Source of the DNA: an uncultured Candidatus Micrarchaeota archaeon
GTDB lineage: Archaea; Micrarchaeota; Micrarchaeia; Anstonellales; Bilamarchaeaceae
Assembly (NCBI GenBank): GCA_963804385.1
Contig: CAWDQD010000036.1
Span: 13,250 to 77,249, forward strand
DNA length: 64,000 nucleotides
Direction: 5' to 3'
This document shows positions 4,250 through 42,712 of the stretch, in pieces. The notes under the pieces were generated by a model that worked only from the letters and a program-made list of their open reading frames with translations, was not told where the DNA came from and did not search any database. Position 1 is the stretch's first letter, and each line of letters begins with the position of its first letter. Made by a program: the position numbers and the translations under genes.

Positions 4250-4274
4250 CGGTAATACTGAGAGTATTAGGTGT

Positions 4275-4281
4275 ATAAATG
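4275..4281 (-). promoter_or_regulatory. TATA-like box for leaderless lonB
   Basis: The minus-strand sequence ATTTATA lies about 26 nt upstream of the proposed ATG at 4249. Confidence 0.4.
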
Positions 4282-4373
4282 TTTTTCCGTATTTTCGGGC
4301 CAAATCCGGCCCTGTGGGGTGGTTTTATAAGCATAATTAACCATCAATTTTAACCTATATTGAGGGAAATCCG

Positions 4374-5393: not shown

Positions 5394-5397
5394 CCCC

Positions 5398-6135: not shown

Positions 6136-6140
6136 TTCTC

Positions 6141-6929: not shown

Positions 6930-6934
6930 TTCTC

Positions 6935-11241: not shown

Positions 11242-11347
11242 ACATATCACCTCAACTAGGGAATAAGCAGCGGTACTATCCGTTGCAGGTATTTAATTGT
11301 ATTGAAATGGTTCAGAAAAAGAAGATAGAAAAAAGAAAGGGGCGGTC

Positions 11348-28581: not shown

Positions 28582-29585
28582 TGAACAAACTCGCGCTCTT
28601 CATGCTCCTGCTATGCTCGGCCGCGTTCGCCAACATGGCGTGCATGGCAAACGCCACGGATGTCATACTGGGCCAGGCGAACGGCGTGCAGGGCCTCATA
28701 ATCGTGGTCATCATCTTCACGATAGTCATAATAGCGCTTGCGTACACGATCGGGACCGCAGCCAACAACCCGTCGCTCACCATATTCGCAAAGGACGAGA
28801 TATACCACCTGGGTTTCTCGATACTCATCCTCCTCGCCATGAGCGGCATCGTGCTCACATCCTGCTCGGTGATAGATTTCTTCAGCGCATCCGTCTTCGC
28901 GAACGCCGGGATCACCACGACGACGTGCTACAACAGCGGCAGCTCGATGACGAGCGTGGCCACGTGCTATGCCAAGTCCGCGCTGGATGACGCGCAGCAG
29001 ATGTCTACGGTCTACATCCAGAAATATCTCGACAACATAATGGATTCCACGATGTCGTGGAGTCTGCAGTTCCCGCTCTTGAATTCCTACACGTCCACCG
29101 CGGCATCGTACAAGAGGATCGTCTCGAACCAGTATGATATGATACTGAACTCGTTCCTGATCCCGGCCATGATGAGCATCAGCATGCAGAAGCTCGCGCT
29201 GCAGTTCATCGACGGCAACGTGGTCACATGGCTGCTGCCGATCGCGTTCCTGCTCCGCATCTTCATCCCGACGAGGCAGATGGGGAACATGCTCATAGCG
29301 CTCTCGCTCGCGCTCTATGTCATCGTCCCTTTCCTCTACGTGTTCAATTTCGCCATGTACGATTCCCTGCTTAGCAAGAGCGACTGCTCGGAGTTCTCGG
29401 GAGCGGTATGCGACTATGTGGCGGACGGAGGCAACTGCACCCCGGATTCGGTCTGCACCAACACGGAAGGGTTCTGGATGGTGGCCAGATTGATACCCCA
29501 GGCGTTCTTCCTTCCGAACCTGACGATAGTAATAGTCATAACGTTCCTTACCGCGATGAATAAGGCACTGAAGGTGATGGGATGA
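28578..29585 (+). CDS. Paralogous polytopic membrane protein MP2
   Basis: 335 aa, joined to MP1 by an ATGATGA overlap. Motifs NNPSLTIFAKDEIYHL and LLPIAFLLRIFIPTRQMGNMLIALSLALYVIVP are present, with a shorter C-terminal tail. Confidence 0.8.
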   Translation: MMNKLALFMLLLCSAAFANMACMANATDVILGQANGVQGLIIVVIIFTIVIIALAYTIGTAANNPSLTIFAKDEIYHLGFSILILLAMSGIVLTSCSVIDFFSASVFANAGITTTTCYNSGSSMTSVATCYAKSALDDAQQMSTVYIQKYLDNIMDSTMSWSLQFPLLNSYTSTAASYKRIVSNQYDMILNSFLIPAMMSISMQKLALQFIDGNVVTWLLPIAFLLRIFIPTRQMGNMLIALSLALYVIVPFLYVFNFAMYDSLLSKSDCSEFSGAVCDYVADGGNCTPDSVCTNTEGFWMVARLIPQAFFLPNLTIVIVITFLTAMNKALKVMG

Positions 29586-31774
29586 AGAAACTGCTCGCGC
29601 TCCTGGCCCTGTTCCTGCTAGTCGGGATGGCTTCTGCAGACAGCAATGTCACGCAGATATTCCAGCAGAAGACGACGAATTCGGCCCTGGAAGTAGCGAA
29701 CAACTGGATGGTGCTCTCCATCATCGCCATCATGATATCGATCATACTCGTCGCGATGGCTTACGCGGTGGGCATCGGCTTCGAGATGCCCGAGCTCCAG
29801 GCATGGGCCGGAAACGAGCTCGTCCAGGTCTTCACCAACGCGATCATGATCGCGGCGCTGATCGGTGCCATAGCTTTCATCGAGATAGTCGTCATCGGGA
29901 TAGCCGCATCGAGCGGCATAAACGTCCCCGAATGCATGCCCACGGGCTCGGGCGTCGCGCCGAGCGGAGCCACATGCCTCCAGGCGGTCACGCAACGATA
30001 CCTCGACAATTACATCAACACCGCGATAGACAAGTCCAAAGGCGTGCTGAAGAACAACGTGGATGCTGGCGGCTGGATGAACCGGAGGCTCGGCCTCACG
30101 TGCATATCCATATACTGCCTCCAGGTCAGCGTATCCGGAACGTTCGCGGCGCAGAATGTCCTGAACATGGACAAATACGGCATCGTGTTCGAATACTATT
30201 CCAACCTCCTGTCCTTCATGGAGTCCCAGCGGTTCTTCGTGATGGCGATATCGTTCAATATGGCCCCGGTGGTGCTCGCGATAGGGATTGTGCTGCGCAG
30301 TTTCTTCTTCTCGAGGAAACTCGGCGGGCTGCTGATGGCGATAGCGATAGGCGTGATGTTCTTCTTCCCGGGGATGTATATCTTCGACTGGCTGACGCTC
30401 AACACGGTCACAAATGGGGATCAGGCGTATGGGCAGGAGACGCAGAACTGCCCTTCGGAATGCCTGATAGAGACCCCGCTCGCGTACCTGAAGGAAGGGA
30501 CGAGCACGATGGCGTTCAACGACACCGAAAGCATCTACCTGGCCTTCAGCGACGAGAATACCGCCGAAGGGATCATAAACGGGAGCCTGGATTCCGCACA
30601 GGCGACTACGACCAATAGCACATATTTCGCGTATAACCAGAATGTCCAGTCCTGCTTCCCATACAACAACGGCACCAAGCTGGGGCCGAACATAAACGGG
30701 AATTACGCGAGCCAGTGCCCCACGGTCTGCAGGGAGCTGCCATACCCCACCGCGCCGGATTGCGTGAACCTCACATCGGGCGTCGCCTACGCGTGCGCAG
30801 CGGTTCCTGCCGAATGCAAGGTGACGAGGCTCGTGCCCAGCGACGAGATAAACCAGACGGAATACGATAGCTGCCCCCTGGCCTGCAAATCCATCCCGCC
30901 GCTGCGGAGCAACTGCGATCTCGATGCCACGAACAAGAACCAGACCGGAGGCACCTGCCTCAATTCGTCTTTCGAGTGCCGGATGGCATACATAAACGAG
31001 TCGCCGACCTTCAAGTCGAGGGCGACCAAGCCGTCGCAGGCCAGCTCTTCCGTGGTGCAAGCATGCAACTACGCCAAGGACTGCGTCGTCAGCCTGAATG
31101 CGAGCCAATCCTGCACATTCGTCGTCCCGCCCACAGGGACATGCGATGACATCTGCGCGGGCTGCCCCTCGGTGTGCCGGGTAGCTGATTTCTGGAACGG
31201 GAGCGTCCCGTCCAGCCAGCTCCCATCCGTTTGCACGGGAAAAGACCCCGTAACCGGCACGGACGTCTCCGCGCAGTGCCGAAAATGCCATGCGGGCTGC
31301 GAGGTCACCGAATCGGATCTGCAGGCGGACAAGGAAGCCGCGACCGCCACCGGGAACTGCACGTCCTGCAACTGGGACCATCTGCTGACCGGAGGCACGA
31401 ACATGCCTTACGAGTACACGAACGGCAATTGCGGGGACGACAGCTGCCCGGTGCAATACCGCACGGACATACCGTTCAACGTCTGCGAATCATGCCTCTT
31501 CGATGAGTCAGAGTACATGTACAACCCTCCGATAAACACCGAATGCTCGGACATCTGCAAACCGCCGGACAACGCTCCGGTGAACCAGCCGGGCACCAAT
31601 ATAGGAGGGGACGGGCTGGCCGGAGACGCGGACATACAGGACCTGTCCAGGCTCATGGTGCCGGTCTACGTGCTGCCGCTGTTCAACATCGTCGCGACAT
31701 TGGTGTTCATCAAGGGTCTATCAACATTCCTAGGAGGGGACGTCGAGATCCCGGGCATATCGAAGGTGTTCTGA
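29582..31774 (+). CDS. Paralogous polytopic membrane protein MP3 with a roughly 370-aa Cys-rich extracytoplasmic insertion
   Basis: 730 aa, joined to MP2 by an ATGA overlap. Motifs EMPELQAWAGNELVQV and VLAIGIVLRSFFFSRKLGGLLMAIAIGVMFFFP and the tail LGGDVEIPGISKVF are present. An insertion with about 35 Cys and many NxS/T sequons lies between the core and the last TM. Confidence 0.8.
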   Translation: MKKLLALLALFLLVGMASADSNVTQIFQQKTTNSALEVANNWMVLSIIAIMISIILVAMAYAVGIGFEMPELQAWAGNELVQVFTNAIMIAALIGAIAFIEIVVIGIAASSGINVPECMPTGSGVAPSGATCLQAVTQRYLDNYINTAIDKSKGVLKNNVDAGGWMNRRLGLTCISIYCLQVSVSGTFAAQNVLNMDKYGIVFEYYSNLLSFMESQRFFVMAISFNMAPVVLAIGIVLRSFFFSRKLGGLLMAIAIGVMFFFPGMYIFDWLTLNTVTNGDQAYGQETQNCPSECLIETPLAYLKEGTSTMAFNDTESIYLAFSDENTAEGIINGSLDSAQATTTNSTYFAYNQNVQSCFPYNNGTKLGPNINGNYASQCPTVCRELPYPTAPDCVNLTSGVAYACAAVPAECKVTRLVPSDEINQTEYDSCPLACKSIPPLRSNCDLDATNKNQTGGTCLNSSFECRMAYINESPTFKSRATKPSQASSSVVQACNYAKDCVVSLNASQSCTFVVPPTGTCDDICAGCPSVCRVADFWNGSVPSSQLPSVCTGKDPVTGTDVSAQCRKCHAGCEVTESDLQADKEAATATGNCTSCNWDHLLTGGTNMPYEYTNGNCGDDSCPVQYRTDIPFNVCESCLFDESEYMYNPPINTECSDICKPPDNAPVNQPGTNIGGDGLAGDADIQDLSRLMVPVYVLPLFNIVATLVFIKGLSTFLGGDVEIPGISKVF

Positions 31775-32841
31775 TGAAGAAACTGGCATTGCTGCTGTTG
31801 CTCATCCCGCTCGCGTTCGCGGCATGGCAGGCCACGGCAGCGCTCGCCATAGTGACTTCGGTCAGCCTGCTCGCCCTATTGTATATGATAGGCATGGGGT
31901 TCGGGATCAACGAGCTGCAGCTGACGGCCAAGGAGGAGTTCTTCCAGGTCATCGCCGTCGCGATCATGATGGTCCTGCTCGTGGGCTCGGACGGCGTGCT
32001 CAACACGATATCGAACAATGTGGCTTTCAGCGGCTCCGGCACCAACATGCAGGACGGGGCCATGATGATCATAAACGACACCACCACGAACGTCACGAAC
32101 CTGTTCAACACGATAACCAGCATCGATCACACCATAGCCAATGAAGCGTCCAAAGGCGGCTCGTGCAATATCATACAGGTAGGGTATTCGGTCAGCGCAT
32201 GCGGCGGCTACAGCATGCTGCCCACGCCCATGTCCATGGCCGGCAGCATAGCCGGCTTCGCGCTCGGGGAGCTGGCCGCCATGTACAAGCTGCTGGAGAT
32301 AGCCACGCAGTTCGGCCTCTCGTTCCTGCTTCCGCTGGGCATAATACTGCGCACATTCAAGCTCACGCGCGGGGCCGGCGGATTCCTGATCGCCCTTGGC
32401 ATATCGATGTACATACTCCTGCCTATGGGGATCATATTCAACGAGATGATGGCTGTCACGTTCATAAGCACGGCAGGGACCAGCAGCCCGGATGCGGCCA
32501 ATGTCGCGCAGTACGCCCCGGTGAGCGGCACGCCGAGCATACCCTCATGCAATCCGCTGGACACCGGATCCTTCATGTCCGGGCTGGGCACCCCGGTCAG
32601 TTGCGGCTCCGGAGGGGGCAATGCCCTTAGCAACACGTTCCTCGGGGGGAGCAACGATGCGAACGCGGTCGGCACATACTGCATGTTGAGGGGAGACATC
32701 AAGGGCTACCTATACGTCATGCTCATCCAAGCCACGCTCGGCCCGGTGATAGCCCTCCTGATGATGATAGCGGGCATAAGGACGCTGAGTTCGATAGCGG
32801 GCGCTGAAGTCGACGTCACAGCGATCTCGAGGTTTGTCTGA
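31774..32841 (+). CDS. Paralogous polytopic membrane protein MP4
   Basis: 355 aa, joined by a TGATG 1-nt overlap. Motifs GINELQLTAKEEFFQV and LLPLGIILRTFKLTRGAGGFLIALGISMYILLP and the tail AGAEVDVTAISRFV are present. The track ORF start at 31543 is an out-of-context extension inside MP3. Confidence 0.8.
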   Translation: MKKLALLLLLIPLAFAAWQATAALAIVTSVSLLALLYMIGMGFGINELQLTAKEEFFQVIAVAIMMVLLVGSDGVLNTISNNVAFSGSGTNMQDGAMMIINDTTTNVTNLFNTITSIDHTIANEASKGGSCNIIQVGYSVSACGGYSMLPTPMSMAGSIAGFALGELAAMYKLLEIATQFGLSFLLPLGIILRTFKLTRGAGGFLIALGISMYILLPMGIIFNEMMAVTFISTAGTSSPDAANVAQYAPVSGTPSIPSCNPLDTGSFMSGLGTPVSCGSGGGNALSNTFLGGSNDANAVGTYCMLRGDIKGYLYVMLIQATLGPVIALLMMIAGIRTLSSIAGAEVDVTAISRFV

Positions 32842-33944
32842 TGTCTCTCACGAAGTTCGCTCTGCTCGCGCTCCTGGTATCATCGATGGCATGGGCAGAC
32901 ACCGTGATGTGCGGCAGCGGCACCGTGTTCGACAACGCGGTGCTCCCCCTCCTCGCATACGCTTCCGTGGGCACGATGATACTCATCGCATTGAGCTATA
33001 TGGCAGGGACCGCATTCTCGAACCCCAAGCTCACGCTGTGGTCCAAGACAGAGATCGTCCAGCTGGTCATATCGATCGCTTCGGTCGCGCTGATCATGCT
33101 CGCGGTCACGACGTTCTGCTCGATAGACATGCATGAGATCGCGGGCATATTCAGCCTCCCCGGCACCCACCCCAGCATCAACGTCTACGACGCCGCGAAG
33201 GATTACCTCGAAGGCTCCGTGAACTATTCGCACAACGCCATGATAATGGTGAGATACCACCTGGAGGCGTACACGGTGCTCTCGTATTTCAACGCGTTCA
33301 TCTGCGACTACAACATCGGCCGTATCGGCCTGGGATGCTTCTTCGGCTATTCGGGAGACACCGAGCAGCCCTTCGGAGGGTACGGAGCGGTAATCGCCGC
33401 GTTGAACGTGTTCTTCAACTCCACGATCATCGCGTACTTCACCGCGCTCAATTTCCTGTTCATACTCCTGTTCATCTACCACGGTTTCGTCTTCCTGTTC
33501 CTGCCGCTGGGGGTTTTCCTCCGCGCCCTCCCGTACATGCGTCCGGTGGGCTCGCTGCTGATAGCGCTCGCGCTGTCGTTCCTGACGATCTACCCGCTCA
33601 TGCTGGGGATATACTACCTGATGAGCCCGGTGCTTCTGGACACCCCGGCGTATGCGCCCGCGGGGATCAATATGGGCAACTACGGGGAGAGCATATTCCC
33701 GGATTCCACGAACCCGGCATCGCAGCTGGCGGTCAGCACGGCAGGCGAATCGTATGTGCATGACCATTATTTCGGGGGCGGCAAGGAGAACCTGGGCGGC
33801 GCGATCGCGTTCTCGGCTGACGCGTTCATCGCGGCAGTGTTCTTCCCGACCTCCGCGCTGCTGGCCGCGATAGCGAGCGTCGCTTACATGGCCAGGATGA
33901 TGGGCGAGGAGATAGATTTAAGCAGGCTAACGCAATTGGTGTAG
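32841..33944 (+). CDS. Paralogous polytopic membrane protein MP5
   Basis: 367 aa, joined by a TGATG 1-nt overlap. Motifs SNPKLTLWSKTEIVQL and FLPLGVFLRALPYMRPVGSLLIALALSFLTIYP and the tail MGEEIDLSRLTQLV are present. Confidence 0.8.
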   Translation: MSLTKFALLALLVSSMAWADTVMCGSGTVFDNAVLPLLAYASVGTMILIALSYMAGTAFSNPKLTLWSKTEIVQLVISIASVALIMLAVTTFCSIDMHEIAGIFSLPGTHPSINVYDAAKDYLEGSVNYSHNAMIMVRYHLEAYTVLSYFNAFICDYNIGRIGLGCFFGYSGDTEQPFGGYGAVIAALNVFFNSTIIAYFTALNFLFILLFIYHGFVFLFLPLGVFLRALPYMRPVGSLLIALALSFLTIYPLMLGIYYLMSPVLLDTPAYAPAGINMGNYGESIFPDSTNPASQLAVSTAGESYVHDHYFGGGKENLGGAIAFSADAFIAAVFFPTSALLAAIASVAYMARMMGEEIDLSRLTQLV

Positions 33945-33946
33945 GT

Positions 33947-34996
33947 ATGATGCTGCTGTCGATACAGAGTTTCATGGGCAACGCGGGCGTCTCGTGGGCA
34001 GCCACATGGCTGCCGCTCTCCATACTGGCGGTGCTTGCGACGGTCATGTTCCATTCCTTACTACTTATGCTCGGCAGGGCGTTCAACATAAAAGAGCTTG
34101 AGAGCTTCGCGATGTCCGAGATACTCCAGGCCGCCGCGACCGCGTTCATCGCGATATTCCTGGTCGTGATGGTCACGAGCGCCATGCAGCTCGCCTCGGG
34201 TTACATAGGCGGCGGCACCCTCGCTTGCAGTGGGACCGCCATGAACATAGGCACCAACACGGCCATCTCGACCTCGGGCGGCTCGGTCATGGACGACGCG
34301 TACAAAGCGATAGAATGCACGCTGCAGCAGCGGGCCATCAGCGTGTCGAGCATCCAGCAGAGCATCCTCACCAGCAGCACGGCTGCGGCGGAATTCAATT
34401 TCCTCAACACGATGGCCAGCGTATTCGGCGTGACCTTCATAAGGGGCGACTGGGTAGGCTCGGTGTACAGCGACACCGAGACCATGAGGCTGACGAACAA
34501 CCTCGCGACAGTGATGCTGATAGGGCTCAACGGCCAGTCGGCGCTGCTCGAATACATGAGGGTCAACCTGCTCAACATCTTCCTCCCGGTCGGGATACTC
34601 CTGCGATCGTTCTATTTCACCCGGGGCCCCGGAGCGCTGTTCATCGCGATAGCCATCGGGATGTACTTCCTGTTCCCGGTGTTCTATATCCTCCTGGATC
34701 CCGGATTCACCCCTGCGCCTCCCGAAGCGGCGACTCCGCCCAATATCCATCCCTACTGCTATTCCACGATGTCCACCACAGTCTCAATGGTGAACACCAT
34801 GCAGAGCGCCGGGGTAGGGACGAGCTCGTCGCTCTCGTTCTCGTCCATGAGGGAGGACCTGTCCAAATCGTATATCAGCCTCATGCTCCAGCCGCTGGTC
34901 GCGCTGTTCCTCACGCTCGTCTTCGTGAGGTACATGATGAGCGTGCTCGGAGGGGACGCGTACGAGCTAACGAAGATGGTTTCGAAAGTGATCTGA
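33947..34996 (+). CDS. Paralogous polytopic membrane protein MP6
   Basis: 349 aa, starting 2 nt after the MP5 stop. Motifs NIKELESFAMSEILQA and FLPVGILLRSFYFTRGPGALFIAIAIGMYFLFP and the tail LGGDAYELTKMVSKVI are present. Confidence 0.8.
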   Translation: MMLLSIQSFMGNAGVSWAATWLPLSILAVLATVMFHSLLLMLGRAFNIKELESFAMSEILQAAATAFIAIFLVVMVTSAMQLASGYIGGGTLACSGTAMNIGTNTAISTSGGSVMDDAYKAIECTLQQRAISVSSIQQSILTSSTAAAEFNFLNTMASVFGVTFIRGDWVGSVYSDTETMRLTNNLATVMLIGLNGQSALLEYMRVNLLNIFLPVGILLRSFYFTRGPGALFIAIAIGMYFLFPVFYILLDPGFTPAPPEAATPPNIHPYCYSTMSTTVSMVNTMQSAGVGTSSSLSFSSMREDLSKSYISLMLQPLVALFLTLVFVRYMMSVLGGDAYELTKMVSKVI

Positions 34997-37900
34997 TGAA
35001 ACACGCATACATACTGGCCGCCATGGCGATTATCATCTTCCTTTCCGGTTGCGTCAGCGACAATGTCCAGCTGGGCTGCTGCATCCAGGCCAATGCCACG
35101 GACCTTTCGAACCAAGGATGCGTGCTCTACAACACCACGAGCTTCACCAGCACCGACGATTACTTCTCGAGCACTCACGGATGCAACCTCACCACCCTGA
35201 ACTGCAATGTGACGATAGGGACCGCGGATTATATCATCCCCATCTGCAGCGGGAGCGAGCTGGTATCATGCGTCGAACCCTCGTGCACCGCGATGGTCTG
35301 CGGGGATTTCGCCTTCAAGCCGCAAGCAGCCCCGGGATACAACGATGTGAGCTCGGCGCAGGGGGACGTGCCCGTGAACGGGCAGAGCGCGACCCTCCAG
35401 TTCTACAAGGCGCAATGCAGGTTCCTGCCCATGGATGCGAACCTGAAGAACATCATGTCGAGCTCGAAATCCCAGATAAACGTTTTCAGGATGGGCGTGG
35501 GCGGCTCGTTCGACGACTTCGATCAATACAGGTATTTCTTCCCGATGTCGGATCAGTACTGCAACATCAACCCCCCGCAGAAGGCAGAAGACAAGAGGGT
35601 GGACAGATACATGAACTACCTCTCCGCGGCCAACGGCGGGACCGCGTATGACGGCAACATAACGACAGATTGCCTCAACGACACGACCGCCCCGCCGCCG
35701 TTCCAGTTCAGCGAGGCGCAGGTGCAGAAGACATCCACGCTGCCGAGCGGAGGCACGGTGACGTACGACACGAAAGCGCCGGACAAATCCGAATACGCGA
35801 GCACCTACGAATACCGTCTCGATTATTCAGCCGTATGGAAATCAGGATATTATTCCTATAGCGGCACGAACCCGCTCCCGACCGACGACCAGGTCATGAA
35901 GCAGATAGACGACAATTTCTACAGGAGGGCGCTCACCATAGCGCATGCGAACGATATATACGCCACTGACAACAACGGAGTCTCCAGGGCGGAATTCGAA
36001 TGCGATATCTCTTCGAACGATTGCTTCTCCGGAAGCTGCGATACGAGCGTCTACAACCGGGGCGTGCTCCAGAGCACCGATGCCGCCACTGGAGTGACGA
36101 CGGACGTGGTCGGTGACTGCAACAAGGTTCAGGACGATGTCGGCCTCACGAGGGTCGTTTGCGGAGCCACCAAGAGCGTCACGATCAACAGCGGCAATAC
36201 CGAACCGACCATCGCTCCGGTGGACGTGAACATGCAGACCGCCCTGCTCGTGGACCAGAGGGGGCTGAACGAAGGCAATTCGGGCAGCGGGGCTGGCGAG
36301 AATGGGAACCCGGGCTTCAACGACTACCAATCGCAGAACAATAACCTCTATCAGAGCTACTGGGGCAATTTCTCTTCGTCTGAGATAGTGGACAAAAGCT
36401 TCATGGGGGTAGGATTGTCATACCCGTACGCCCCATGGGCGATCGATTTCTATCTGGCGAAGAAGAAGGACTGCCCGGCCCTTTATGGCTATATCGCCCC
36501 GGGAAGCGCGGATGAGAATGTCACCGTGAACTGCTCCATGGCATTCCCATCAGATTCCCAGCCGCCGGTAATTTTCGGCGTCACGCTGCCTTCGCTGCCC
36601 CCGGACCTCGGAGGCGCGGTGTTCTTCGGCAAGACAGGCGACACGCAGGTGAACTATGCCGGCAGCGACATACTCGGATACGCGATAGCGTCCCCGGATG
36701 ATATCGCGAACATGTACGTCGTGAAGAACTGCGGCATAGACCTCACTCCGATCCAGACGACATTCCCGATCGCGGTGGATAACACCCCGGCATCCTTGTC
36801 TGATTGCCTGAGCCAATGCACGAACATATGCGCCCCTGCGCCCCAAGGCAGCAATATATACAAGAGCTGCAGCACATGGTGCAGCAACGACACTCCGGAC
36901 CCCTCGACACAGCCATGCGAGATGCCCCCCGAGAGCAAAGACGCCATAATGCTGGATGTCCCTGCCCCGACCCAATGGGGAAGGCTGCTCAACGCATTCG
37001 AACCGTATTACGAGCAGAGGATGAAGGCGCTCATCGGCACGGGTTTCAGCGACGGGTGCGGCGGCAGCCTCAATGTGCTGGACGGTGCGATCTCATCAAT
37101 GCCGTGGGTGATGGAGTACAAGAAAGGGGTGAGGACTCCGGATTTCGTACTGGGTGGCGACAGCGATCCGGTGGGATCCGGCCCGCCGGATACGGCGTTT
37201 CCTGAGCAGAACCAATACGACACCGAGGGCGGCCACCTGTTCCTAACATCCCTGCCGGCGCAGATACAGCGGGATAGGAACGTGTTCGATGACCGTATGC
37301 TCAACTTCTCCGGGACGAGCAGCTGCGAGCTGCGCCGGGACACCTACGGCTACTGGGATACCGACGGCCTCAACTATGTCGATACCAACGACGGCTTCGT
37401 TGCACAATATACATACAACCCGTATTACAGCATCGCGTATTCCACGAACATATACCTGTTCAAGTACAACGCCACGACCAACAAGCTCGGCAAATGCGAC
37501 ATAGATTCCGACACGCTGCTGCCGGTCATCAAGACGCTGGGGTGGTGCAAGCCATGCACGACGTCCACGCTCGCGTACCAGAACATAAGCACCACGTCGC
37601 GCGTGTATATCTCCAATTACACGGTGGATGTCGGAGGTCCGACCGCCAAGGACGAGGAAGGGATATGCTCGGTGCAATACGACCACTCGCAGGTGGGTTG
37701 GTTCACCACGACCGCAGACAACGTCTCGTGCTTCAATCCGCATATAAGCGATCTCCAGGACTACCAAGGGGAACTAGGCATCCAGGGTTCGCCCAGGACA
37801 ATCCCTGATGCCACGATAATAAAACAGAAGATCGGGAATTACATGAAATCAGGCGTGCTGCCGGTGCTCGATTTGTCAGATATCAGCAACTGGATCAAGA

Positions 37901-39297
37901 GCAACCCGGATTGCGACTGGGACGCCGCGCACAACAGATGCCGCAACAACGCATTCAATTTCAATTGGTGGAGCACCGCCACATACGGCCCCAAAGGCAA
38001 TTACCTGGACTATGATTTCCAGAACCTGTTCGGCAATATGGGAGCTGCGGTCGTCATAGTCGAGCATGTGAGCAACCTGACGGACCTTAACACAGGGGTA
38101 TCGTACCAATTCCCGTTCTTGGGGGACATAATGGTGGAACCGCCGAAGATACAGACGATCAAGGACCGCGCCCAGATAGTCAGGGATTACTGCCACGACT
38201 GCCTCATCGCTTTCCAGGTGGATTCCCCGGACAATAGCACGGTTTTCGGGGATGTGGTCAGATCGGCCATGGCAGACCCCACCGCGAGAGCGGACGTGGA
38301 CATGATAACATTCGATTATTCCGTGACTTCGCACGATGCCCGCACGCTTGGAAATGCCACCGCGGTGGCCGATGACATAGCGTCCTACGGCCTCGCATCG
38401 TTGCAGAACACCGGAAAACCGACCATGGTGGTCGGACTGAGCGTGAGCGACATCGACATCTATTGGAACAGCAACAATTACAAGACGCTTTTCGACACCA
38501 TAGTGGATGGGCAGGACACGCTCCTCAAGGCGGGCATCATGGGGATAATCTACAGCCCCGCCAGGGACCAGCAGATCGTGGATTCGGGCGGACGGGCGAG
38601 GCCGATACTGCCCGGCTCGCTGAACGGGATAGTCAGCGTGGATCCGACAGGCGCAGGAGTCAAAGACGCGAAATTCTGCGCCCTACAGGACGCGATGCAC
38701 AGGATGTCCACCATACCTCCGAACGCGCTGATCACCAAGACTGAATCTCTGGACAGCGTGAACTGCACCGCATGCACGAGCCTCGATATCAGCCAGGGGA
38801 CGTGCGGGCCTCCGGCAGGCCATTCCGCTCCGGTCTGCGACGACGGGGTGGAATGCACCCTCCCGCCAGGCCTGAGCGCGGGACTCGCGAAATGCCCGGA
38901 AGGTACGGTCATAGCGCAGTGCCCGCTCTGCAGCGACATGACAGGCACCTTCAACTGCACCAAGACGTACGCCAACGGCACGGAAGAGAACATCGCCGGC
39001 GACATGTCGGAGCTTACAGGAGACACGTGGATGGACGTCCTCGCAGGGCTGCCCAAACCGGACAAATGCTGCATACAGGACAGCGCAGGCAACAACTACA
39101 CATACACGAAGCAGACGTATGAGAGCCCGCAGGACAAGCCGGTCGTCTTCTCTAAAACAGGCGACCAGAACCTGGATTGCGGGTTCGGGACTTCGACCAG
39201 CCAGGTCGACACGGTGACATCGTTCTGCAACATCCCGGCCCCGCCGATGAAGGATTACGACATAAACTGCTGCATAGACTGCTCGAAGGCGCCGTGA
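34996..39297 (+). CDS. Giant (1433 aa) Cys-rich secreted lipoprotein-like protein of unknown function
   Basis: TGATG overlap with MP6. The N-terminus MKHAYILAAMAIIIFLSGC carries a lipobox-like LSGC. I count about 55 Cys, dozens of NxS/T sequons, and no further TM. The track ORF start at 34225 is a spurious extension inside MP6. Confidence 0.8.
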   Translation: MKHAYILAAMAIIIFLSGCVSDNVQLGCCIQANATDLSNQGCVLYNTTSFTSTDDYFSSTHGCNLTTLNCNVTIGTADYIIPICSGSELVSCVEPSCTAMVCGDFAFKPQAAPGYNDVSSAQGDVPVNGQSATLQFYKAQCRFLPMDANLKNIMSSSKSQINVFRMGVGGSFDDFDQYRYFFPMSDQYCNINPPQKAEDKRVDRYMNYLSAANGGTAYDGNITTDCLNDTTAPPPFQFSEAQVQKTSTLPSGGTVTYDTKAPDKSEYASTYEYRLDYSAVWKSGYYSYSGTNPLPTDDQVMKQIDDNFYRRALTIAHANDIYATDNNGVSRAEFECDISSNDCFSGSCDTSVYNRGVLQSTDAATGVTTDVVGDCNKVQDDVGLTRVVCGATKSVTINSGNTEPTIAPVDVNMQTALLVDQRGLNEGNSGSGAGENGNPGFNDYQSQNNNLYQSYWGNFSSSEIVDKSFMGVGLSYPYAPWAIDFYLAKKKDCPALYGYIAPGSADENVTVNCSMAFPSDSQPPVIFGVTLPSLPPDLGGAVFFGKTGDTQVNYAGSDILGYAIASPDDIANMYVVKNCGIDLTPIQTTFPIAVDNTPASLSDCLSQCTNICAPAPQGSNIYKSCSTWCSNDTPDPSTQPCEMPPESKDAIMLDVPAPTQWGRLLNAFEPYYEQRMKALIGTGFSDGCGGSLNVLDGAISSMPWVMEYKKGVRTPDFVLGGDSDPVGSGPPDTAFPEQNQYDTEGGHLFLTSLPAQIQRDRNVFDDRMLNFSGTSSCELRRDTYGYWDTDGLNYVDTNDGFVAQYTYNPYYSIAYSTNIYLFKYNATTNKLGKCDIDSDTLLPVIKTLGWCKPCTTSTLAYQNISTTSRVYISNYTVDVGGPTAKDEEGICSVQYDHSQVGWFTTTADNVSCFNPHISDLQDYQGELGIQGSPRTIPDATIIKQKIGNYMKSGVLPVLDLSDISNWIKSNPDCDWDAAHNRCRNNAFNFNWWSTATYGPKGNYLDYDFQNLFGNMGAAVVIVEHVSNLTDLNTGVSYQFPFLGDIMVEPPKIQTIKDRAQIVRDYCHDCLIAFQVDSPDNSTVFGDVVRSAMADPTARADVDMITFDYSVTSHDARTLGNATAVADDIASYGLASLQNTGKPTMVVGLSVSDIDIYWNSNNYKTLFDTIVDGQDTLLKAGIMGIIYSPARDQQIVDSGGRARPILPGSLNGIVSVDPTGAGVKDAKFCALQDAMHRMSTIPPNALITKTESLDSVNCTACTSLDISQGTCGPPAGHSAPVCDDGVECTLPPGLSAGLAKCPEGTVIAQCPLCSDMTGTFNCTKTYANGTEENIAGDMSELTGDTWMDVLAGLPKPDKCCIQDSAGNNYTYTKQTYESPQDKPVVFSKTGDQNLDCGFGTSTSQVDTVTSFCNIPAPPMKDYDINCCIDCSKAP

Positions 39298-39299
39298 CT

Positions 39300-39635
39300 A
39301 TGGGGATAAGAGAAATATTGAAAGGCATGCTCAATCCGCCCAAAAGCGGCGGCAAAGGCCAGCGTCAGTCATGCCCCAACTGCGGGGAGTCGATCAACCT
39401 GAGCATGGAGCGCTGCCCCAAATGCGGGGTCCGGATAAAGAGCATGTTCCGGAGGAAGTGCCCCAGATGCGGCACCCTGAACGAGCTGGACATAAAATCA
39501 TGCGCGAACTGCCATTACGATTTCGAAGCAGAATTGGAAAGGGCTAAAAAAACGTTTTACGTATGCCCTATCTGCGGATATAAGATGGAGGCGCTGCTCA
39601 CGCAGTGCCCTTCCTGCAACACCCGTTTCATGTGA
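39300..39635 (+). CDS. Triple zinc-ribbon protein
   Basis: 111 aa with three CxxC-N11-16-CxxC/H units: CPNCG...CPKCG, CPRCG...CANCH and CPICG...CPSCN. It starts 2 nt after the giant gene's stop. Confidence 0.7.
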   Translation: MGIREILKGMLNPPKSGGKGQRQSCPNCGESINLSMERCPKCGVRIKSMFRRKCPRCGTLNELDIKSCANCHYDFEAELERAKKTFYVCPICGYKMEALLTQCPSCNTRFM

Positions 39636-39639
39636 GTTT

Positions 39640-40206
39640 ATGGTCGAATCATTCAAGCAAGCTGAGAAGAAAATCGAGGCCGAGGCCGCACCCAAGAAGA
39701 AGTTCGTCCACCTACTGGACGAAGAGAACGTGGAGGTCAAGAAGCTCACGGAAGAGGACATCGAGGACTGTGTCAAGGTCATGAGGAGATGCGCCTTCGA
39801 TGTCACCGAAGCCGAGGTCGGGAACATAATATCCTACGGCAAGAGCTTCGGCGCCACGGTCAACCGCATGATAGTTGGCGTCGGCCTCGCGTGGCCCGCG
39901 CACATAGACATGGAAGGGAAGCGCATAACGAGCGGGGAACCGAACGCGCTCTACCTGGAGGATCCGGCCATCCTGCTCTCCTACGAAGGCAGGGGGGTCA
40001 GGAGGATACTGCTCTCGGAAAGGGAGAAGGAGGCGGCATCGTCCAACCTGAAATACGTGATCGGATACCTCTACGAGGACATCCCGAAAGACGAGATCGC
40101 GCATTACATAACCGAGGCAGGCAGCGCCCTGGAGAGGCTCTACCTCTCGGAAGGGTACGAATTCTACAGGACCGACAAGGGCATACTGGCGTTCAAGAAG
40201 GTCTAG
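39640..40206 (+). CDS. Hypothetical protein, weak GNAT-acetyltransferase-like features
   Basis: 188 aa, starting 4 nt after the zinc-ribbon gene. YEGRGVRRILLSEREKEAAS loosely resembles GNAT motif A, and the C-terminal YLSEGYEF..D.G...FKK resembles the GNAT beta-bulge end. This is a weak by-eye call. Confidence 0.3.
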   Translation: MVESFKQAEKKIEAEAAPKKKFVHLLDEENVEVKKLTEEDIEDCVKVMRRCAFDVTEAEVGNIISYGKSFGATVNRMIVGVGLAWPAHIDMEGKRITSGEPNALYLEDPAILLSYEGRGVRRILLSEREKEAASSNLKYVIGYLYEDIPKDEIAHYITEAGSALERLYLSEGYEFYRTDKGILAFKKV

Positions 40207-40898: not shown

Positions 40899-40951
40899 GA
40901 CAAGGCTTATCGATGAATAAGATTAATAAGGTGCTAAGCTGAGTTCTGGTG

Positions 40952-42712
40952 ATGCGCTTACTACATGTGCTCTGTCTCCTGCTGATATCATCGATAGCGT
41001 TCGCTTCTTCGATAGCGCCCGGATCATCCGCGCCATATTGCAACGGAAGCATCACGCAGTACGTGCCTGCGGTCGTAGGGACCGGAGGCGGTCTGGTAGG
41101 GGTGACATTGCAGCTCGTCCCATCGACGGAAGGGAACGGTACCATCTATGCCGGGGTCTATCCGACGCTCGGGACCGACACCCAGGACTCCATCGACCAG
41201 GCGGTCACATACGCATTCGCCGCGTCTAGCAAGGAGCTCTCATGCAACGCGCTCGTCTCCTTCAGTTCTGGGTATGGCACGGGCTACATAGACGGCCCGA
41301 GCGCCGGAGCCGCGTTCACGGTCATGACATACGCCCTGGTGAACAACCGGACGATGCGGAACGACACTATCATGACCGGGACTATAGAGGATGGGGGAGA
41401 TATCGGCGCGGTCGGGGGCCTCTACGAGAAAGCCGATAGCGCCGCCAAGGGCGGTGCGAAGTATTTCATCGCTCCGGTGGAAGGGATATACGAGATGCTG
41501 ATATTGCGGAACGTGGAGAAGATGGATGGCATAACGATCCTCCAGGCGCGCAATGTGAAAGATGCCATAGGTTTCATGCTGGACAACATATCGATAGACC
41601 AGGAGGGCATGCTACCCCAGAACCGGACCGCCCCGGATATACCGTCCTATGATTCCGGCGGGATCTCGTCGTTCATCCCGGTCGCCTCTGGCATGGTATC
41701 GCTCGAGAACGAGACCCTCGCCACCATAAGCGGCACCGACAACGATTCGAACGCGGTGCGCGATTTCTACTCCAGCGAGACGGAAAGGCAATCGAAGATC
41801 CTCAGGATGGGGTACCTCTTCACTGCGGCCAACGAGGCGTTCCTGAATTACATCGACCTCTCCACCATAAAGTCCATACTGGCCAATGACACGGACGTAT
41901 CGGCCAAGAGGGGCGATCTCGGCGTATGCCTCGGCTCCATAACCAGGCCTGCCTTGACCGACAATAATTTCCAGTGGGTGATCGGCGCGGACCTGCGCCA
42001 GGCATGGGCTTATGACAAGATGGCGGGGGACCAGAACGTGAGCGGCATGCTCGAAGACGAGCGGTACCTCGCGATAAACGACATGTCATACGGGATCGCG
42101 TGGTGCGATGTCGCGAAATCCATCCTGGCGGCTGCGCCCCAGGGCGGCACTCCGATAGATGAGAACGCGTGGAAGGCTCTCGCGACGCAGGAGATAGATG
42201 ACGCCAAGAACCTCCCGCTGCAGAAGCCCGACAGCATAGCGAGGCTGGGGATAGCCCAGAACTCGTACAACAACGGCAAATACGGGGCCGCGATATACGA
42301 CGCGGTGTACGCGATGAACAACGAGGAGACCCCGCCCACGGATCCGGAGACCGAGAAGGCCCAGGTCAGCGCGCTCCTCGGGGAGAACATCACTTCGCTC
42401 TGGGGGCAGATATACATGTCCCATGCCGCGTTCCTCTATCAGGACAACGACAGCGCATCGGCCTGGACCGTGGCGAGATTCGCCAAGGAGCTCGATGACG
42501 TGACGAAGCAGATGGAAAACAGCACGGCCACGCAGACTCCCGCGGCTGCGGTCCCGATCAGCCCCCCGGCGCAGGACTATCTCCTCCTGGCAGAGGGATT
42601 CGCGGCATTATCAATCTTTTTATTGGTTGTCGCTGTAATACTACTGATAAGGCGAGCGGATGGAAACGAACGAACTGGTAGGGATTATAGAGCTAAACAA
42701 AAAAAGGGCTGA
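40952..42712 (+). CDS. Secreted, C-terminally membrane-anchored Lon-like (S16) serine peptidase domain protein
   Basis: Signal peptide MRLLHVLCLLLISSIAFASS, followed by the Lon proteolytic core YIDGPSAGAAFTVMTYAL...MTGTIEDGGDIGAVGGLYEKADSAAKGGAKYFIAP (Ser-Lys dyad context). This is followed by a roughly 350-aa unknown domain and the C-terminal TM LLLAEGFAALSIFLLVVAVILLI. No AAA+ module is present. A TATA-like ATTAATAA lies 23 nt upstream. Confidence 0.7.
   Translation: MRLLHVLCLLLISSIAFASSIAPGSSAPYCNGSITQYVPAVVGTGGGLVGVTLQLVPSTEGNGTIYAGVYPTLGTDTQDSIDQAVTYAFAASSKELSCNALVSFSSGYGTGYIDGPSAGAAFTVMTYALVNNRTMRNDTIMTGTIEDGGDIGAVGGLYEKADSAAKGGAKYFIAPVEGIYEMLILRNVEKMDGITILQARNVKDAIGFMLDNISIDQEGMLPQNRTAPDIPSYDSGGISSFIPVASGMVSLENETLATISGTDNDSNAVRDFYSSETERQSKILRMGYLFTAANEAFLNYIDLSTIKSILANDTDVSAKRGDLGVCLGSITRPALTDNNFQWVIGADLRQAWAYDKMAGDQNVSGMLEDERYLAINDMSYGIAWCDVAKSILAAAPQGGTPIDENAWKALATQEIDDAKNLPLQKPDSIARLGIAQNSYNNGKYGAAIYDAVYAMNNEETPPTDPETEKAQVSALLGENITSLWGQIYMSHAAFLYQDNDSASAWTVARFAKELDDVTKQMENSTATQTPAAAVPISPPAQDYLLLAEGFAALSIFLLVVAVILLIRRADGNERTGRDYRAKQKKG

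What the first reader, a model, noticed from the sequence alone, without database searches (positions are those of the whole stretch)
34996..39297. A giant lipobox-bearing protein with about 55 cysteines and dense N-glycosylation sequons is the terminal cargo-like gene of the MP operon
The N-terminus MKHAYILAAMAIIIFLSGC has a lipobox-like L-S-G-C. There is no other hydrophobic segment in 1433 aa.

Cysteines occur in clusters, including LGCC, CNLTTLNCNVT, CSGSELVSCVEPSCTAMVC, CLSQCTNICAP...CSTWCS, CTACTSLDISQGTCGPP...CDDGVEC...CPEGTVIAQCPLC, DKCC and NCCIDC.

NxS/T sequons are very frequent (NAT, NTT, NLT, NVT, NIT, NDT, NCS, NYT and others).

This composition fits an extracellular, disulfide-stabilised glycoprotein. 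The two DsbA-like genes at 10318-12220 could supply the oxidising machinery. I recognise no enzymatic or adhesin domain.
Basis: partly seen in the sequence, partly recalled or inferred. Interest (0 to 1): 0.7.

Follow-up and report, generated by a model that had tools for sequence, protein, structure and literature searches.

The report
Giant disulfide-rich Micrarchaeota surface lipoprotein
This 1433-residue gene encodes a membrane-tethered, cysteine-packed surface protein found only in the tiny symbiotic Micrarchaeota archaea, always encoded with six related membrane proteins and one other giant protein, so it looks like part of an undescribed cell-envelope machine whose job is still unknown.

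Summary
ORF 34996-39297 (+) encodes 1433 aa with 55 Cys, 22 NxS/T sequons, one hydrophobic segment and an L-S-G-C lipobox.

The window is from a Micrarchaeota (DPANN) archaeon. The protein founds a phylum-restricted superfamily of about 194 clusters at 50% identity. Members are 1100-1900 aa, and nearly all have a signal peptide, an xGC lipobox and a CC motif shortly after it. 43 of the 55 Cys are at least 90% conserved. Cys totals are nearly always odd, which fits one lipid-anchor Cys plus paired disulfide Cys. Only 4 sequons are conserved.

No Pfam, NCBIfam, PHROG, PADLOC or PDB sequence hit was found. A confident AlphaFold model of residues 1-700 has no Foldseek match. Residues ~938-1250 form a glycoside-hydrolase-like TIM barrel, but no conserved catalytic acid pair is present.

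The gene is the last of a strictly syntenic eight-gene module: a divergent giant bitopic protein, six paralogous ~5-TM proteins with 1:1 orthologs, then this gene. The module is intact in 38 of 40 informative loci and is sometimes duplicated whole.

Best reading: it is the lipid-anchored, disulfide-stabilised, glycosylated outer subunit of a new Micrarchaeota envelope complex, perhaps for cell or host contact. The function is inferred, not shown.

The parts
34996..39297 (+). GIANT: 1433-aa cysteine-rich lipobox protein (the finding)
   Evidence: Translation. 55 Cys and 22 sequons. 79 full-length relatives, all with Micrarchaeota names. 194 representative clusters.
34996..35052 (+). Signal peptide and lipobox (residues 1-19, ...F-L-S-G-C19)
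   Evidence: Only hydrophobic segment in the protein. G18-C19 invariant in 38 relatives. An xGC motif is present in almost all distant superfamily members.
35053..36195 (+). N-terminal conserved core (residues 20-400): the GCC motif, CTAMVCGDF, FRxGVGGSFDEFDQYRYYFP, RVDRYMNYL and ECD..C.SG.C; 17 invariant Cys. This is the part shared by the whole superfamily.
   Evidence: Invariant columns. Distant relatives match mainly query residues 5-212 or 5-400. The model has pLDDT mostly 80-95 and no Foldseek hit in PDB or BFVD.
36196..36945 (+). Variable middle region (residues 401-650), including a low-complexity loop (NEGNSGSGAGENGNPG) and a facultative Cys cluster (C604-C641, present in 53-63% of relatives)
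   Evidence: Lowest conservation and most gaps. Cys conservation. pLDDT below 50 at residues 428-434.
36946..37806 (+). Alpha/beta and beta-sandwich region (residues 651-937) with the invariant GWCxPCT motif (C851, C854)
   Evidence: Secondary structure and pLDDT of model m1ce7109f9c63. Conservation.
37807..38745 (+). TIM-barrel-like (beta/alpha)8 domain (residues ~938-1250) resembling glycoside hydrolase clan A, with a degenerate active site
   Evidence: Foldseek against PDB gave 235 hits at E<=1e-3. The top hits are GH10, GH53, GH5 and GH2 barrels (E ~4e-6, TM 0.4-0.5 on the target). Alternating beta/alpha pattern with pLDDT above 90. Residues at strand ends.
38746..39294 (+). C-terminal cysteine-rich domain (residues 1251-1433; 15 Cys invariant in 38 relatives; conserved sequon N1327)
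27337..34996 (+). MP1-MP6: six paralogous ~5-TM membrane proteins at 27337-28581, 28548-29585, 29582-31774, 31771-32841, 32841-33944 and 33947-34996. MP3 carries a ~420-aa extracellular insert with 36 Cys and 13 sequons.
   Evidence: Paralogy by blastp, E from 1e-14 to 3e-4. Invariant E58, R220, R226, G229 and P244. Gene junctions of -34, -4, -4, -1, +2 and -1 nt. 1:1 orthologs in the same order in 38 distinct loci.
23418..27254 (-). DIV: divergently transcribed 1278-aa bitopic protein, with signal/TM, a Cys-rich ectodomain of ~200 aa, a TM helix, then ~1000 aa rich in Ala, Gly and Lys; no P-loop
   Evidence: A homolog flanks the module in nearly all loci. In the distant locus L047 it lies downstream on the same strand.
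39300..40206 (+). Double zinc-ribbon protein (39300-39635) and a 188-aa soluble protein (39640-40206), tightly coupled downstream. They are conserved next to the primary module copy but absent from second copies.
   Evidence: PF12773 at 2.4e-10. Gaps of 2 and 4 nt. Synteny.
40949..42712 (+). Conserved neighbour: a Lon_C (S16) protease-domain protein with no ATPase, with a signal peptide, a C-terminal TM helix and 2.2 sequons per 100 aa
10318..12220 (-). Two membrane-anchored DsbA-like thioredoxin-fold proteins with CPYC. They could be the extracytoplasmic oxidants, about 23 kb away. Whether they are linked to the module was not tested.

Best explanation
GIANT is the outward-facing, lipid-anchored subunit of a previously undescribed Micrarchaeota-specific envelope complex.

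Proposed steps:
- It is exported by Sec.
- It is tethered to the outer leaflet through a thioether-linked lipid on Cys19.
- It folds outside the cell into a compact, non-repetitive multi-domain body locked by about 27 disulfides. Membrane-anchored DsbA-like oxidoreductases could catalyse this.
- It is N-glycosylated at a few conserved sites (N33, N46, N71, N1327) and at many variable ones.
- It assembles with the extracellular loops of six distinct paralogous ~5-TM proteins (MP1-6, presumably a hetero-oligomer of fixed composition) and with the Cys-rich ectodomain of the bitopic giant DIV. DIV's long cytoplasmic tail would connect the assembly to the cell interior.

The glycosidase-like TIM barrel has lost a conserved catalytic pair. 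It most likely binds rather than cleaves a carbohydrate.

The most probable role of the complex is contact with another cell surface (host or sibling) and/or exchange across that contact.

Shown: sequence features, conservation, synteny, the predicted fold, and restriction to one phylum. Inferred: lipidation, disulfides, glycosylation, physical assembly and the biological role.
For: Export and anchoring:
- A single N-terminal hydrophobic segment is followed by L-S-G-C.
- G18-C19 are invariant.
- The same signal peptide, xGC and downstream CC motif occur in almost every distant superfamily member.
- Archaeal lipobox lipidation by AliA is established, and AliA occurs in DPANN (PMC12462473).

Disulfides and glycosylation:
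- 43 of 55 Cys are at least 90% conserved.
- Cys totals in relatives are almost always odd (45, 47, 51, 53, 55, 57, 61), which fits one anchor Cys plus pairs.
- Cys is at 3.8% against about 1% in cytoplasmic proteins. Sequons are 3-4 times denser, as in MP3 and the LonC-like protein.
- CPYC DsbA-like proteins with TM anchors are encoded in the window.

Fold:
- The models are confident and compact: pLDDT 80.4 and 80.7, pTM 0.73 and 0.70.

Membership of a complex:
- Gene junctions run from -34 to +4 nt.
- The order DIV, MP1-6, GIANT recurs in 38 distinct loci, with exactly six MP-profile hits each.
- It also recurs in a distant relative where each MP has its own ortholog at 29-36% identity.
- Whole modules are duplicated within one MAG at 26-58% identity component by component, and in tandem on one contig (L039).

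Barrel not a conserved enzyme:
- Candidate acid positions vary. D1107 is Asp in 55 of 77 sequences. The beta7 position 1214 is Asp in 44 and Glu in 6 of 77, and is Ser in this window's protein.
Against: - There are no expression, localisation or interaction data.
- The MP proteins and DIV were not modelled, and no multimer prediction was possible, so physical assembly rests on synteny alone.
- No ATPase or other energy source lies in the module. That limits active-transport models but says nothing for or against adhesion.
- Two diverged relatives lack MP genes directly upstream (L037 and L048), so some family members may act alone.
- Whether the cultivated Micrarchaeota (A_DKE, Mia14, ARM-1) carry the module could not be tested. 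The link to host contact is therefore by analogy with the DPANN lifestyle only.
- The catalytic-residue argument uses strand positions read from secondary structure. It does not use a residue-level superposition.
Confidence: 0.5

Rival explanations
1. It is an active, surface-tethered glycoside hydrolase or other carbohydrate-active enzyme. The TIM barrel would cut host S-layer or cell-wall glycans, or scavenge sugars. The rest of the protein would be scaffold.
For: The Foldseek hits of the C-terminal model are dominated by GH10, GH53, GH5 and GH2 barrels, with probability 1.00 and E ~4e-6. The barrel has conserved polar and aromatic residues at strand ends: D959 in 75 of 77 sequences, N965, W966, Y1108, Y1186 and R1190. 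DPANN are thought to need tools to breach host envelopes (general knowledge).
Against: No Pfam or NCBIfam glycosidase model hits at E<=0.01. The family profile finds nothing in PDB sequences even at E<=10. There is no conserved Glu pair on beta4 and beta7. The best candidates are Asp residues replaced in 25-35% of members, and this window's protein has Ser at the beta7 position. TM-scores are only 0.4-0.5, with rmsd of 7-9 A.
Confidence: 0.12
2. It is a structural envelope protein: an S-layer or S-layer-associated canopy or stalk held on the membrane by its lipid anchor and the MP proteins. It would have no role in cell-cell contact.
For: It is large, secreted, glycosylated and lipid-anchored, like some archaeal S-layer glycoproteins (general knowledge). 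It is conserved throughout the phylum in a core-genome neighbourhood next to ELP3 and a LonC-like protein.
Against: The Micrarchaeota S-layer protein has been identified and is a different protein: 101 kDa, PF05123, almost no sulfur amino acids, with homologs in 38 of 49 genomes (bioRxiv 10.1101/2021.04.28.441871). GIANT has no S-layer domain hit and 3.8% Cys. A lattice protein would not need six distinct membrane partners.
Confidence: 0.13
3. The module is an uptake or export conduit, for example for host lipids or metabolites that Micrarchaeota cannot make. MP1-6 would form the ~30-TM channel, and GIANT would be its extracellular cap or substrate-binding lid.
For: The six paralogous polytopic proteins carry invariant charged residues next to TM segments (E58, R220, R226). 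In other systems, lipoproteins commonly serve as the extracellular binding components of transporters (general knowledge).
Against: The module has no ATPase, and DIV has no P-loop. The MP family matches no Pfam, NCBIfam or PDB-sequence transporter family. A 1433-aa cap with 27 disulfides is far larger than known binding proteins.
Confidence: 0.15
4. It belongs to an integrated virus or mobile element, for example as an envelope or fusion glycoprotein with accessory membrane proteins.
For: Cys-rich glycosylated ectodomains are typical of viral envelope proteins (general knowledge).
Against: GC content is uniform across the region. The flanking synteny with housekeeping genes is the same across dozens of species. 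There are no meaningful PHROG or PADLOC hits. No relative was found on IMG/VR contigs. Neither BFVD nor PDB gives a structural match for the N-terminal 700 aa.
Confidence: 0.02

Closest known systems
Archaeal lipobox lipoproteins (AliA/AliB-dependent, thioether-linked archaeol; Haloferax volcanii model)
   Same: N-terminal signal peptide ending in [L][S/A][G]C. The Cys is invariant across the family. The lipidation enzyme AliA is reported in DPANN (PMC12462473).
   Different: Known archaeal lipoproteins are mostly substrate-binding proteins of 30-70 kDa. This one is 1433 aa, has about 27 putative disulfides and orphan folds, and is locked into an eight-gene module.
Glycoside hydrolase clan GH-A (beta/alpha)8 barrels (GH10 xylanases, GH53 galactanases, GH5)
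   Same: The predicted fold of residues ~938-1250 is matched by Foldseek at E ~4e-6 over about 310-340 columns.
   Different: About 10% identity, no profile match, and no conserved Asn-Glu or Glu catalytic pair. The candidate acids are Asp and are not invariant. It is embedded in a much larger disulfide-rich protein.
SPEARE proteins of Nanohaloarchaeota (giant DPANN surface proteins implicated in host interaction)
   Same: Giant, secreted, lineage-specific proteins of a DPANN symbiont, suspected to mediate host contact (recalled from the literature; not tested here).
   Different: SPEARE proteins are defined by serine-protease, adhesion and restriction-endonuclease domains. None of these is detected here. 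There is no sequence relationship. SPEARE proteins are not encoded with a six-paralog membrane-protein array.
Micrarchaeota S-layer protein SLP_Mh (PF05123)
   Same: Same phylum; secreted, glycosylated, conserved surface protein.
   Different: It is a different protein family: 101 kDa, S-layer domains, almost no Cys or Met. GIANT has none of those domains.
Intercellular nanotubes of the Micrarchaeon ARM-1 (Johnson et al. 2024, PMC11329633)
   Same: A Micrarchaeota-specific envelope structure that spans to the host and whose protein components are unidentified. An orphan, phylum-specific envelope module is a natural candidate.
   Different: No evidence links the two. Presence of the module in ARM-1 was not testable here.

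Membership tests
Prokaryotic lipobox lipoprotein | N-terminal signal peptide with a positive n-region and a hydrophobic h-region | tested here: met
   MKH followed by AYILAAMAIIIF. This is the only segment with hydropathy above 1.6.
Prokaryotic lipobox lipoprotein | Lipobox [L/V/I][A/S/T/V/I][G/A/S]C at the end of the h-region, conserved in relatives | tested here: met
   L-S-G-C19. G18 and C19 are invariant in 38 relatives. xGC is present in most of about 90 distant relatives.
Prokaryotic lipobox lipoprotein | Covalent lipid on the Cys and cleavage of the signal peptide | not testable with these tools
   Needs Triton X-114 partitioning or mass spectrometry. Odd Cys totals are consistent with one unpaired anchor Cys.
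Glycoside hydrolase clan GH-A | (beta/alpha)8 barrel fold | tested here: met
   Foldseek gave 235 PDB hits at E<=1e-3, the top ones being GH10, GH53, GH5 and GH2. The model has pLDDT above 90 across the barrel.
Glycoside hydrolase clan GH-A | Conserved acid/base Glu (Asn-Glu) at the end of beta4 and nucleophile Glu at the end of beta7 | tested here: not met
   The strand ends read VTFD1107-Y and GLV(D/S)1214. D1107 is Asp in 55 of 77 sequences. Position 1214 is D44/E6 of 77 and is Ser in this protein. Caveat: strand numbering comes from predicted secondary structure, not from a superposition.
Glycoside hydrolase clan GH-A | Sequence-profile match to a GH family | tested here: not met
   No Pfam or NCBIfam hit at E<=0.01. 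The family profile against PDB sequences finds nothing at E<=10.
Archaeal S-layer glycoprotein (PF05123 / TIGR01564 type, as in Micrarchaeota SLP_Mh) | S-layer N- or C-terminal domains; few sulfur amino acids | tested here: not met
   No such domain. 3.8% Cys, whereas SLP_Mh has almost no sulfur amino acids.
Archaeal S-layer glycoprotein | Forms a 2-D lattice; among the most abundant cell proteins | not testable with these tools
   No expression or imaging data for this organism.
Repeat-type adhesins (Ig-like, cadherin, beta-helix) | Tandem repeated domains | tested here: not met
   Self-BLAST finds no internal repeat. No Pfam repeat family is detected.
SPEARE proteins (Nanohaloarchaeota) | Serine protease, adhesion and restriction-endonuclease domains | tested here: not met
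   No Pfam or NCBIfam domain of these kinds.
Viral or mobile-element envelope protein | Occurrence on viral contigs, viral protein families, or an atypical genomic island | tested here: not met
   No relative in IMG/VR. The only PHROG match is a chance-level 35-residue stretch. No BFVD fold match. Core-genome synteny is conserved.

The most novel reading that the evidence does not exclude
The eight-gene module (DIV, MP1-6, GIANT) encodes the still-unidentified host-contact apparatus of Micrarchaeota. This would be, for example, the membrane base and tip of the intercellular nanotubes or contact sites seen by cryo-ET, through which these lipid- and nucleotide-auxotrophic symbionts take material from their hosts. 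In this reading GIANT is the glycan-recognising, disulfide-armoured distal component built from folds not seen before.
Probability: 0.2. Interest if true: 0.9.

Novelty: categorically new. Interest (0 to 1): 0.68.

Why it matters
How DPANN archaea recognise, attach to and draw resources from their hosts is a central open question, and for Micrarchaeota no component is known. This finding gives a concrete candidate that can be tested.

- It is a phylum-wide, vertically inherited set of eight genes taking up about 16 kb of a very small genome, and it is sometimes kept in two copies.
- Its extracellular parts have no sequence relatives outside the phylum.
- For the first 700 residues of GIANT, no structural relative exists in PDB or BFVD.
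- Even if the role proves to be purely structural, it would be a new kind of archaeal envelope complex and a source of new disulfide-rich folds.
- It also supplies a large, clean family of archaeal lipobox proteins with an invariant anchor Cys, useful for studying lipoprotein biogenesis and extracytoplasmic oxidative folding in DPANN.

Tried and rejected
- Sequence-family assignment. Pfam, NCBIfam, PHROGs and PADLOC on GIANT, MP1-6, DIV and the neighbours gave nothing meaningful for the module proteins. Searching PDB sequences with phmmer and with family profiles gave nothing at E<=10 for GIANT or the MPs.
- S-layer identity. Rejected after reading the description of SLP_Mh.
- Viral origin. 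Rejected.
- Repeat adhesin. Rejected. GIANT also shows no similarity to the MP3 insert or the DIV ectodomain.
- HerA (46945-48447) as a possible motor of the module. It is not part of the conserved module, and in L002 it lies several genes away with a tRNA endonuclease. I treat it as an unrelated HerA.
- Profile search with distant members to obtain taxon names. It returned only 3 proteins, probably because Cys-rich words swamped the candidate list. Names were recovered through cluster look-ups instead.
- Literature searches. Searches on Micrarchaeota or DPANN combined with cysteine-rich, lipoprotein, gene cluster or nanotube found no description of this family or module.
- Full-length or profile query in the exhaustive search. 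Not possible because of the 1200-position limit. Residues 1-1200 were used as a single sequence.
- Residue-level mapping of catalytic positions onto GH10 or GH53. Not possible, because model coordinates and Foldseek alignments are not exposed.


Full report

Yes. ORF 34996-39297 (+) is uninterrupted and encodes 1433 aa starting MKHAYILAAMAIIIFLSGC.
- It has exactly 55 Cys (3.8%) and 22 NxS/T sequons.
- The only hydrophobic stretch of TM strength is residues 1-30.
- Relative to a shuffle of its own composition, the sequon count is only modestly high (mean 14.5, z = 2.2).
- Relative to cytoplasmic proteins of the same window, both features stand out. Cys is at about 1% elsewhere. Sequons are at about 0.4 per 100 aa elsewhere, against 1.54 here.
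- The two other clearly extracytoplasmic proteins nearby show the same sequon excess: the MP3 insert (1.78) and a LonC-like protein (2.21).
Each has an N-terminal TM helix and a CPYC motif.

**2. What organism, and how widespread is the family?**

The window is archaeal. It has an intron-containing tRNA at 58801-58924, archaeal LonB, exosome subunits and ELP3.
- A word-indexed search found 79 full-length relatives at 25-43% identity. Every named one comes from Candidatus Micrarchaeota, Bilamarchaeum or 'ainarchaeum'.
- A scan of one genome per GTDB species returned 42 loci, all Micrarchaeota.
- An exhaustive phmmer search with residues 1-1200 against 1.84 billion representatives found 194 clusters at E<=1e-3, of which 65 are at E<=1e-30.
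- The distant relatives are also 1100-1900 aa and share chiefly the N-terminal 200-400 residues.
- Almost all of them begin with a signal peptide, an xGC lipobox and a CC pair shortly after it, and they carry 3-8% Cys.
- They align to the close family over the whole architecture.
- Every distant member that has a source name is again Micrarchaeota, Anstonellaceae or Micrarchaeia.
- No relative lies on IMG/VR viral contigs.

This is a large superfamily restricted to one phylum.

**3. Anatomy of the protein**
- In 38 aligned relatives, 43 of the 55 Cys are at least 90% conserved, including C19 of the lipobox (G18-C19 are invariant).
- Total Cys counts are almost always odd (45, 47, 51, 53, 55, 57, 61). 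That is what one unpaired lipid-anchor Cys plus fully paired disulfide Cys would give.
- Only four sequons are conserved (N33, N46, N71, N1327). The others come and go, and relatives have 6-31.
- There are no internal repeats.
- Conservation is highest in residues 100-200 and 300-350 and in the C-terminal 130 residues. It is lowest at 400-650, 700-750 and 950-1050, where insertions and deletions concentrate.

**4. Structure**

Two AlphaFold2 models were built on 77-sequence alignments, and both are confident.
- Residues 1-700: pLDDT 80.4, pTM 0.73.
- Residues 639-1433: pLDDT 80.7, pTM 0.70.

The N-terminal 700 residues have no Foldseek match better than E = 1 in either PDB or BFVD. As far as these libraries go, they are structural orphans.

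The C-terminal model gave 235 PDB hits at E<=1e-3. All of the top 50 are (beta/alpha)8 barrels, mostly of glycoside hydrolase clan A (GH10, GH53, GH5, GH2) together with Kemp eliminases engineered on a GH10 scaffold. Values are E ~4e-6, about 310-340 aligned columns, about 10% identity, and TM 0.4-0.5 on the target. The barrel corresponds to residues ~938-1250, where strands and helices alternate and pLDDT exceeds 90.

I then looked for the clan's defining catalytic pair. The residues at the strand ends are:
- VLPVLD959
- VVIV(D/E)1023
- CLTAxH1074V
- VTFD1107-Y1108
- VGFN1149V
- IIY1186SPAR
- GLV(D)1214

There is no conserved Glu pair.
- D959 is nearly invariant (75 of 77).
- The positions equivalent to beta4 and beta7 are Asp in only 55 and 44 of 77 sequences. 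They are replaced by Ser, Asn, Trp or Thr in the rest.
- This window's own protein has Ser at the beta7 position.
- No glycosidase profile matches.

My conclusion is that the domain has a glycosidase-like fold but is not a conserved glycosidase. A carbohydrate-binding or purely structural role is more likely.

**5. Genomic context: the decisive evidence**

Upstream lie six tandem genes, MP1-MP6 (27337-34996).
- They are paralogs of one another (blastp E from 1e-14 to 3e-4).
- They share a signal-like N-terminus, about five TM helices and two extracellular loops.
- They share invariant E58, R220, R226, G229 and P244 (MP6 numbering) in short loops with a positive-inside pattern, and most share a conserved C-terminal tail, GGE..I..V.
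- MP3 carries a 420-aa insert with 36 Cys and 13 sequons in the second extracellular loop.

Successive genes overlap or are separated by -34, -4, -4, -1, +2 and -1 nt. GIANT begins on the last base of the MP6 stop codon. A Zn-ribbon gene and a 188-aa gene follow after 2 and 4 nt.

Divergently transcribed from the same 82-bp spacer is DIV (23418-27254, 1278 aa). It has a signal/TM segment, a Cys-rich ectodomain, a TM helix, then about 1000 residues rich in Ala, Gly and Lys, with no P-loop.

Synteny across other genomes:
- Blast and a profile HMM over all fetched loci show the order DIV(-), MP1, MP2, MP3, MP4, MP5, MP6, GIANT(+). There are exactly six MP hits in 38 distinct loci.
- The remaining loci are cut by contig ends, apart from two diverged relatives (L037, L048) that lack MPs directly upstream.
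- A distant superfamily member (L047, 42% GC, about 28% identity to GIANT) still has six MPs in the same order. Each is the reciprocal best match of its counterpart at 29-36% identity. There DIV lies downstream on the same strand.
- Second copies in the same MAG (L010/L012 and L035/L027) and a tandem pair on one contig (L039) duplicate the whole eight-gene unit, at 26-58% identity component by component. They lack the Zn-ribbon, the 188-aa gene and the LonC-like neighbours.

The functional unit is therefore DIV, MP1-6 and GIANT. GIANT is its last gene, and the Zn-ribbon and 188-aa genes are conserved neighbours of the primary copy. The MP family is also Micrarchaeota-only and has no Pfam or PDB-sequence relative.

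**6. How it most likely works**

Six paralogs are kept as six distinct orthologous lines in fixed order. The genes are tightly coupled, often overlapping. When duplication happens, the whole set duplicates. This pattern is typical of a hetero-oligomeric complex of fixed composition, not of a transporter with a cargo.

All the Cys- and sequon-rich parts are predicted to face outward: GIANT, the MP3 insert and the DIV ectodomain. The conserved charged loops and tails of the MPs and the long DIV tail face the cytoplasm.

I therefore read GIANT as the lipid-anchored, disulfide-locked, glycosylated outer subunit of a new envelope complex. Its degenerate glycosidase-like barrel would be a probable glycan-binding site. 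Its indel-rich segments could be adaptive surface.

The biological role is inferred only. The phylum is made of host-dependent symbionts, and no contact machinery is known for them. In particular, the components of the ARM-1 nanotubes are unidentified (PMC11329633). A cell or host contact and exchange apparatus is my preferred reading, at about 0.5 for the complex-subunit model and about 0.2 for the specific host-contact role.

Rivals are:
- an active glycosidase (0.12);
- an S-layer-type structural protein (0.13), although the known Micrarchaeota S-layer protein is a different, Cys-poor PF05123 protein;
- the cap of an uptake conduit (0.15);
- a mobile-element protein (0.02).

**7. Comparison with what is known, and novelty**
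- The lipobox features meet the sequence definition of a prokaryotic lipoprotein, and archaeal lipobox lipidation is now established, with AliA present in DPANN (PMC12462473).
- The barrel meets the fold criterion of clan GH-A but fails the catalytic-residue and profile criteria.
- It is not an S-layer protein, a repeat adhesin, a SPEARE-type protein or a viral protein by the tests listed in the membership table.
- I found no paper that describes the family or the module. Database entries call the members 'hypothetical protein'.
- I rate it categorically new as a system. The explicit limit is that the MP and DIV folds were not modelled and AlphaFold DB could not be searched.

**8. Verdict**

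- Extracellular disulfide-rich glycosylated lipoprotein: yes.
- 'Cargo': no evidence.
- 'Terminal': only with respect to the conserved module.
- 'No recognisable domain': there is a degenerate GH-like barrel.

Interest is 0.68. It gives a concrete and testable candidate for an undescribed Micrarchaeota envelope machine, but no functional data exist yet.

Noticed in passing
window 29582-31774 (+), residues ~270-690 of MP3: MP3 alone among the six paralogs carries a ~420-aa extracellular insert with 36 Cys and 13 sequons. The insert is conserved in orthologs (L001, L002, L047). It shows no detectable similarity to GIANT.
   Followed up: partly
window 23418-27254 (-): A divergent 1278-aa bitopic protein (DIV) has a Cys-rich ectodomain (including a CPVC motif) and a ~1000-aa Ala/Gly/Lys-rich cytoplasmic region with no Pfam hit and no P-loop. 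It is always linked to the module. In the distant locus L047 it sits downstream on the same strand.
   Followed up: partly
window 40949-42712 (+): A Lon_C (S16) protease domain with no ATPase module, carrying a signal peptide, a C-terminal TM anchor and the highest sequon density in the window (2.2 per 100 aa). It looks like an extracellular Lon-type protease. It is a conserved neighbour of the primary module copy. A canonical LonB is also present at 2270-4303 (-).
   Followed up: partly
L039 (CAILMU010000061.1); L010/L012 (JBNLBN01); L035/L027 (JAKEGJ01): The whole eight-gene module is duplicated, in tandem on one contig or on two contigs of one MAG. Copies are 26-58% identical component by component. 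This is a large investment for genomes of about 1 Mb.
   Followed up: yes
L037 3906-7841 and L048 972-5306: Two diverged GIANT-like genes have no MP genes directly upstream. In L048 the gene is preceded by an ORF6N-domain gene, and a DIV homolog lies 5 kb downstream. These may be 'solo' family members.
   Followed up: partly
window 4374-7663 (+): Four tandem paralogous genes each carry a GXGXG motif domain (PF01493, as in the glutamate synthase C-terminal domain and FwdC), with no accompanying catalytic subunit seen nearby.
   Followed up: no
window 12291-13382 (-): An ORF has a GGDEF diguanylate-cyclase domain hit (E = 1e-13), which is unusual for an archaeon. It lies next to the two DsbA-like genes.
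   Followed up: no
window 58801-58924 (+): Rfam finds a 124-nt tRNA (53 bits), presumably containing an intron. ARAGORN in bacterial mode missed it. It overlaps the end of the mechanical ORF 58173-58925 (-).
   Followed up: no
window 10318-12220 (-): Both DsbA-like proteins carry, besides the CPYC active site, a second conserved motif CPVCNTTCPSG just after the TM helix, followed by a Pro/Thr/Gln-rich linker.
   Followed up: no
window 29618-31456 (-) and other long antisense ORFs (e.g. 32880-33767, 34061-34750): Long ORFs antisense to the MP genes translate to Arg/His/Asp-rich nonsense. These are frame artefacts of the 57-59% GC coding sequence, not genes.
   Followed up: partly
window 45121-46086 (+) and 46945-48447 (-): A Fic/DOC-family protein and a HerA-type ATPase (DUF87 plus HAS barrel). 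In L002 the HerA lies several genes from the module, and I judge it unrelated to the module.
   Followed up: partly
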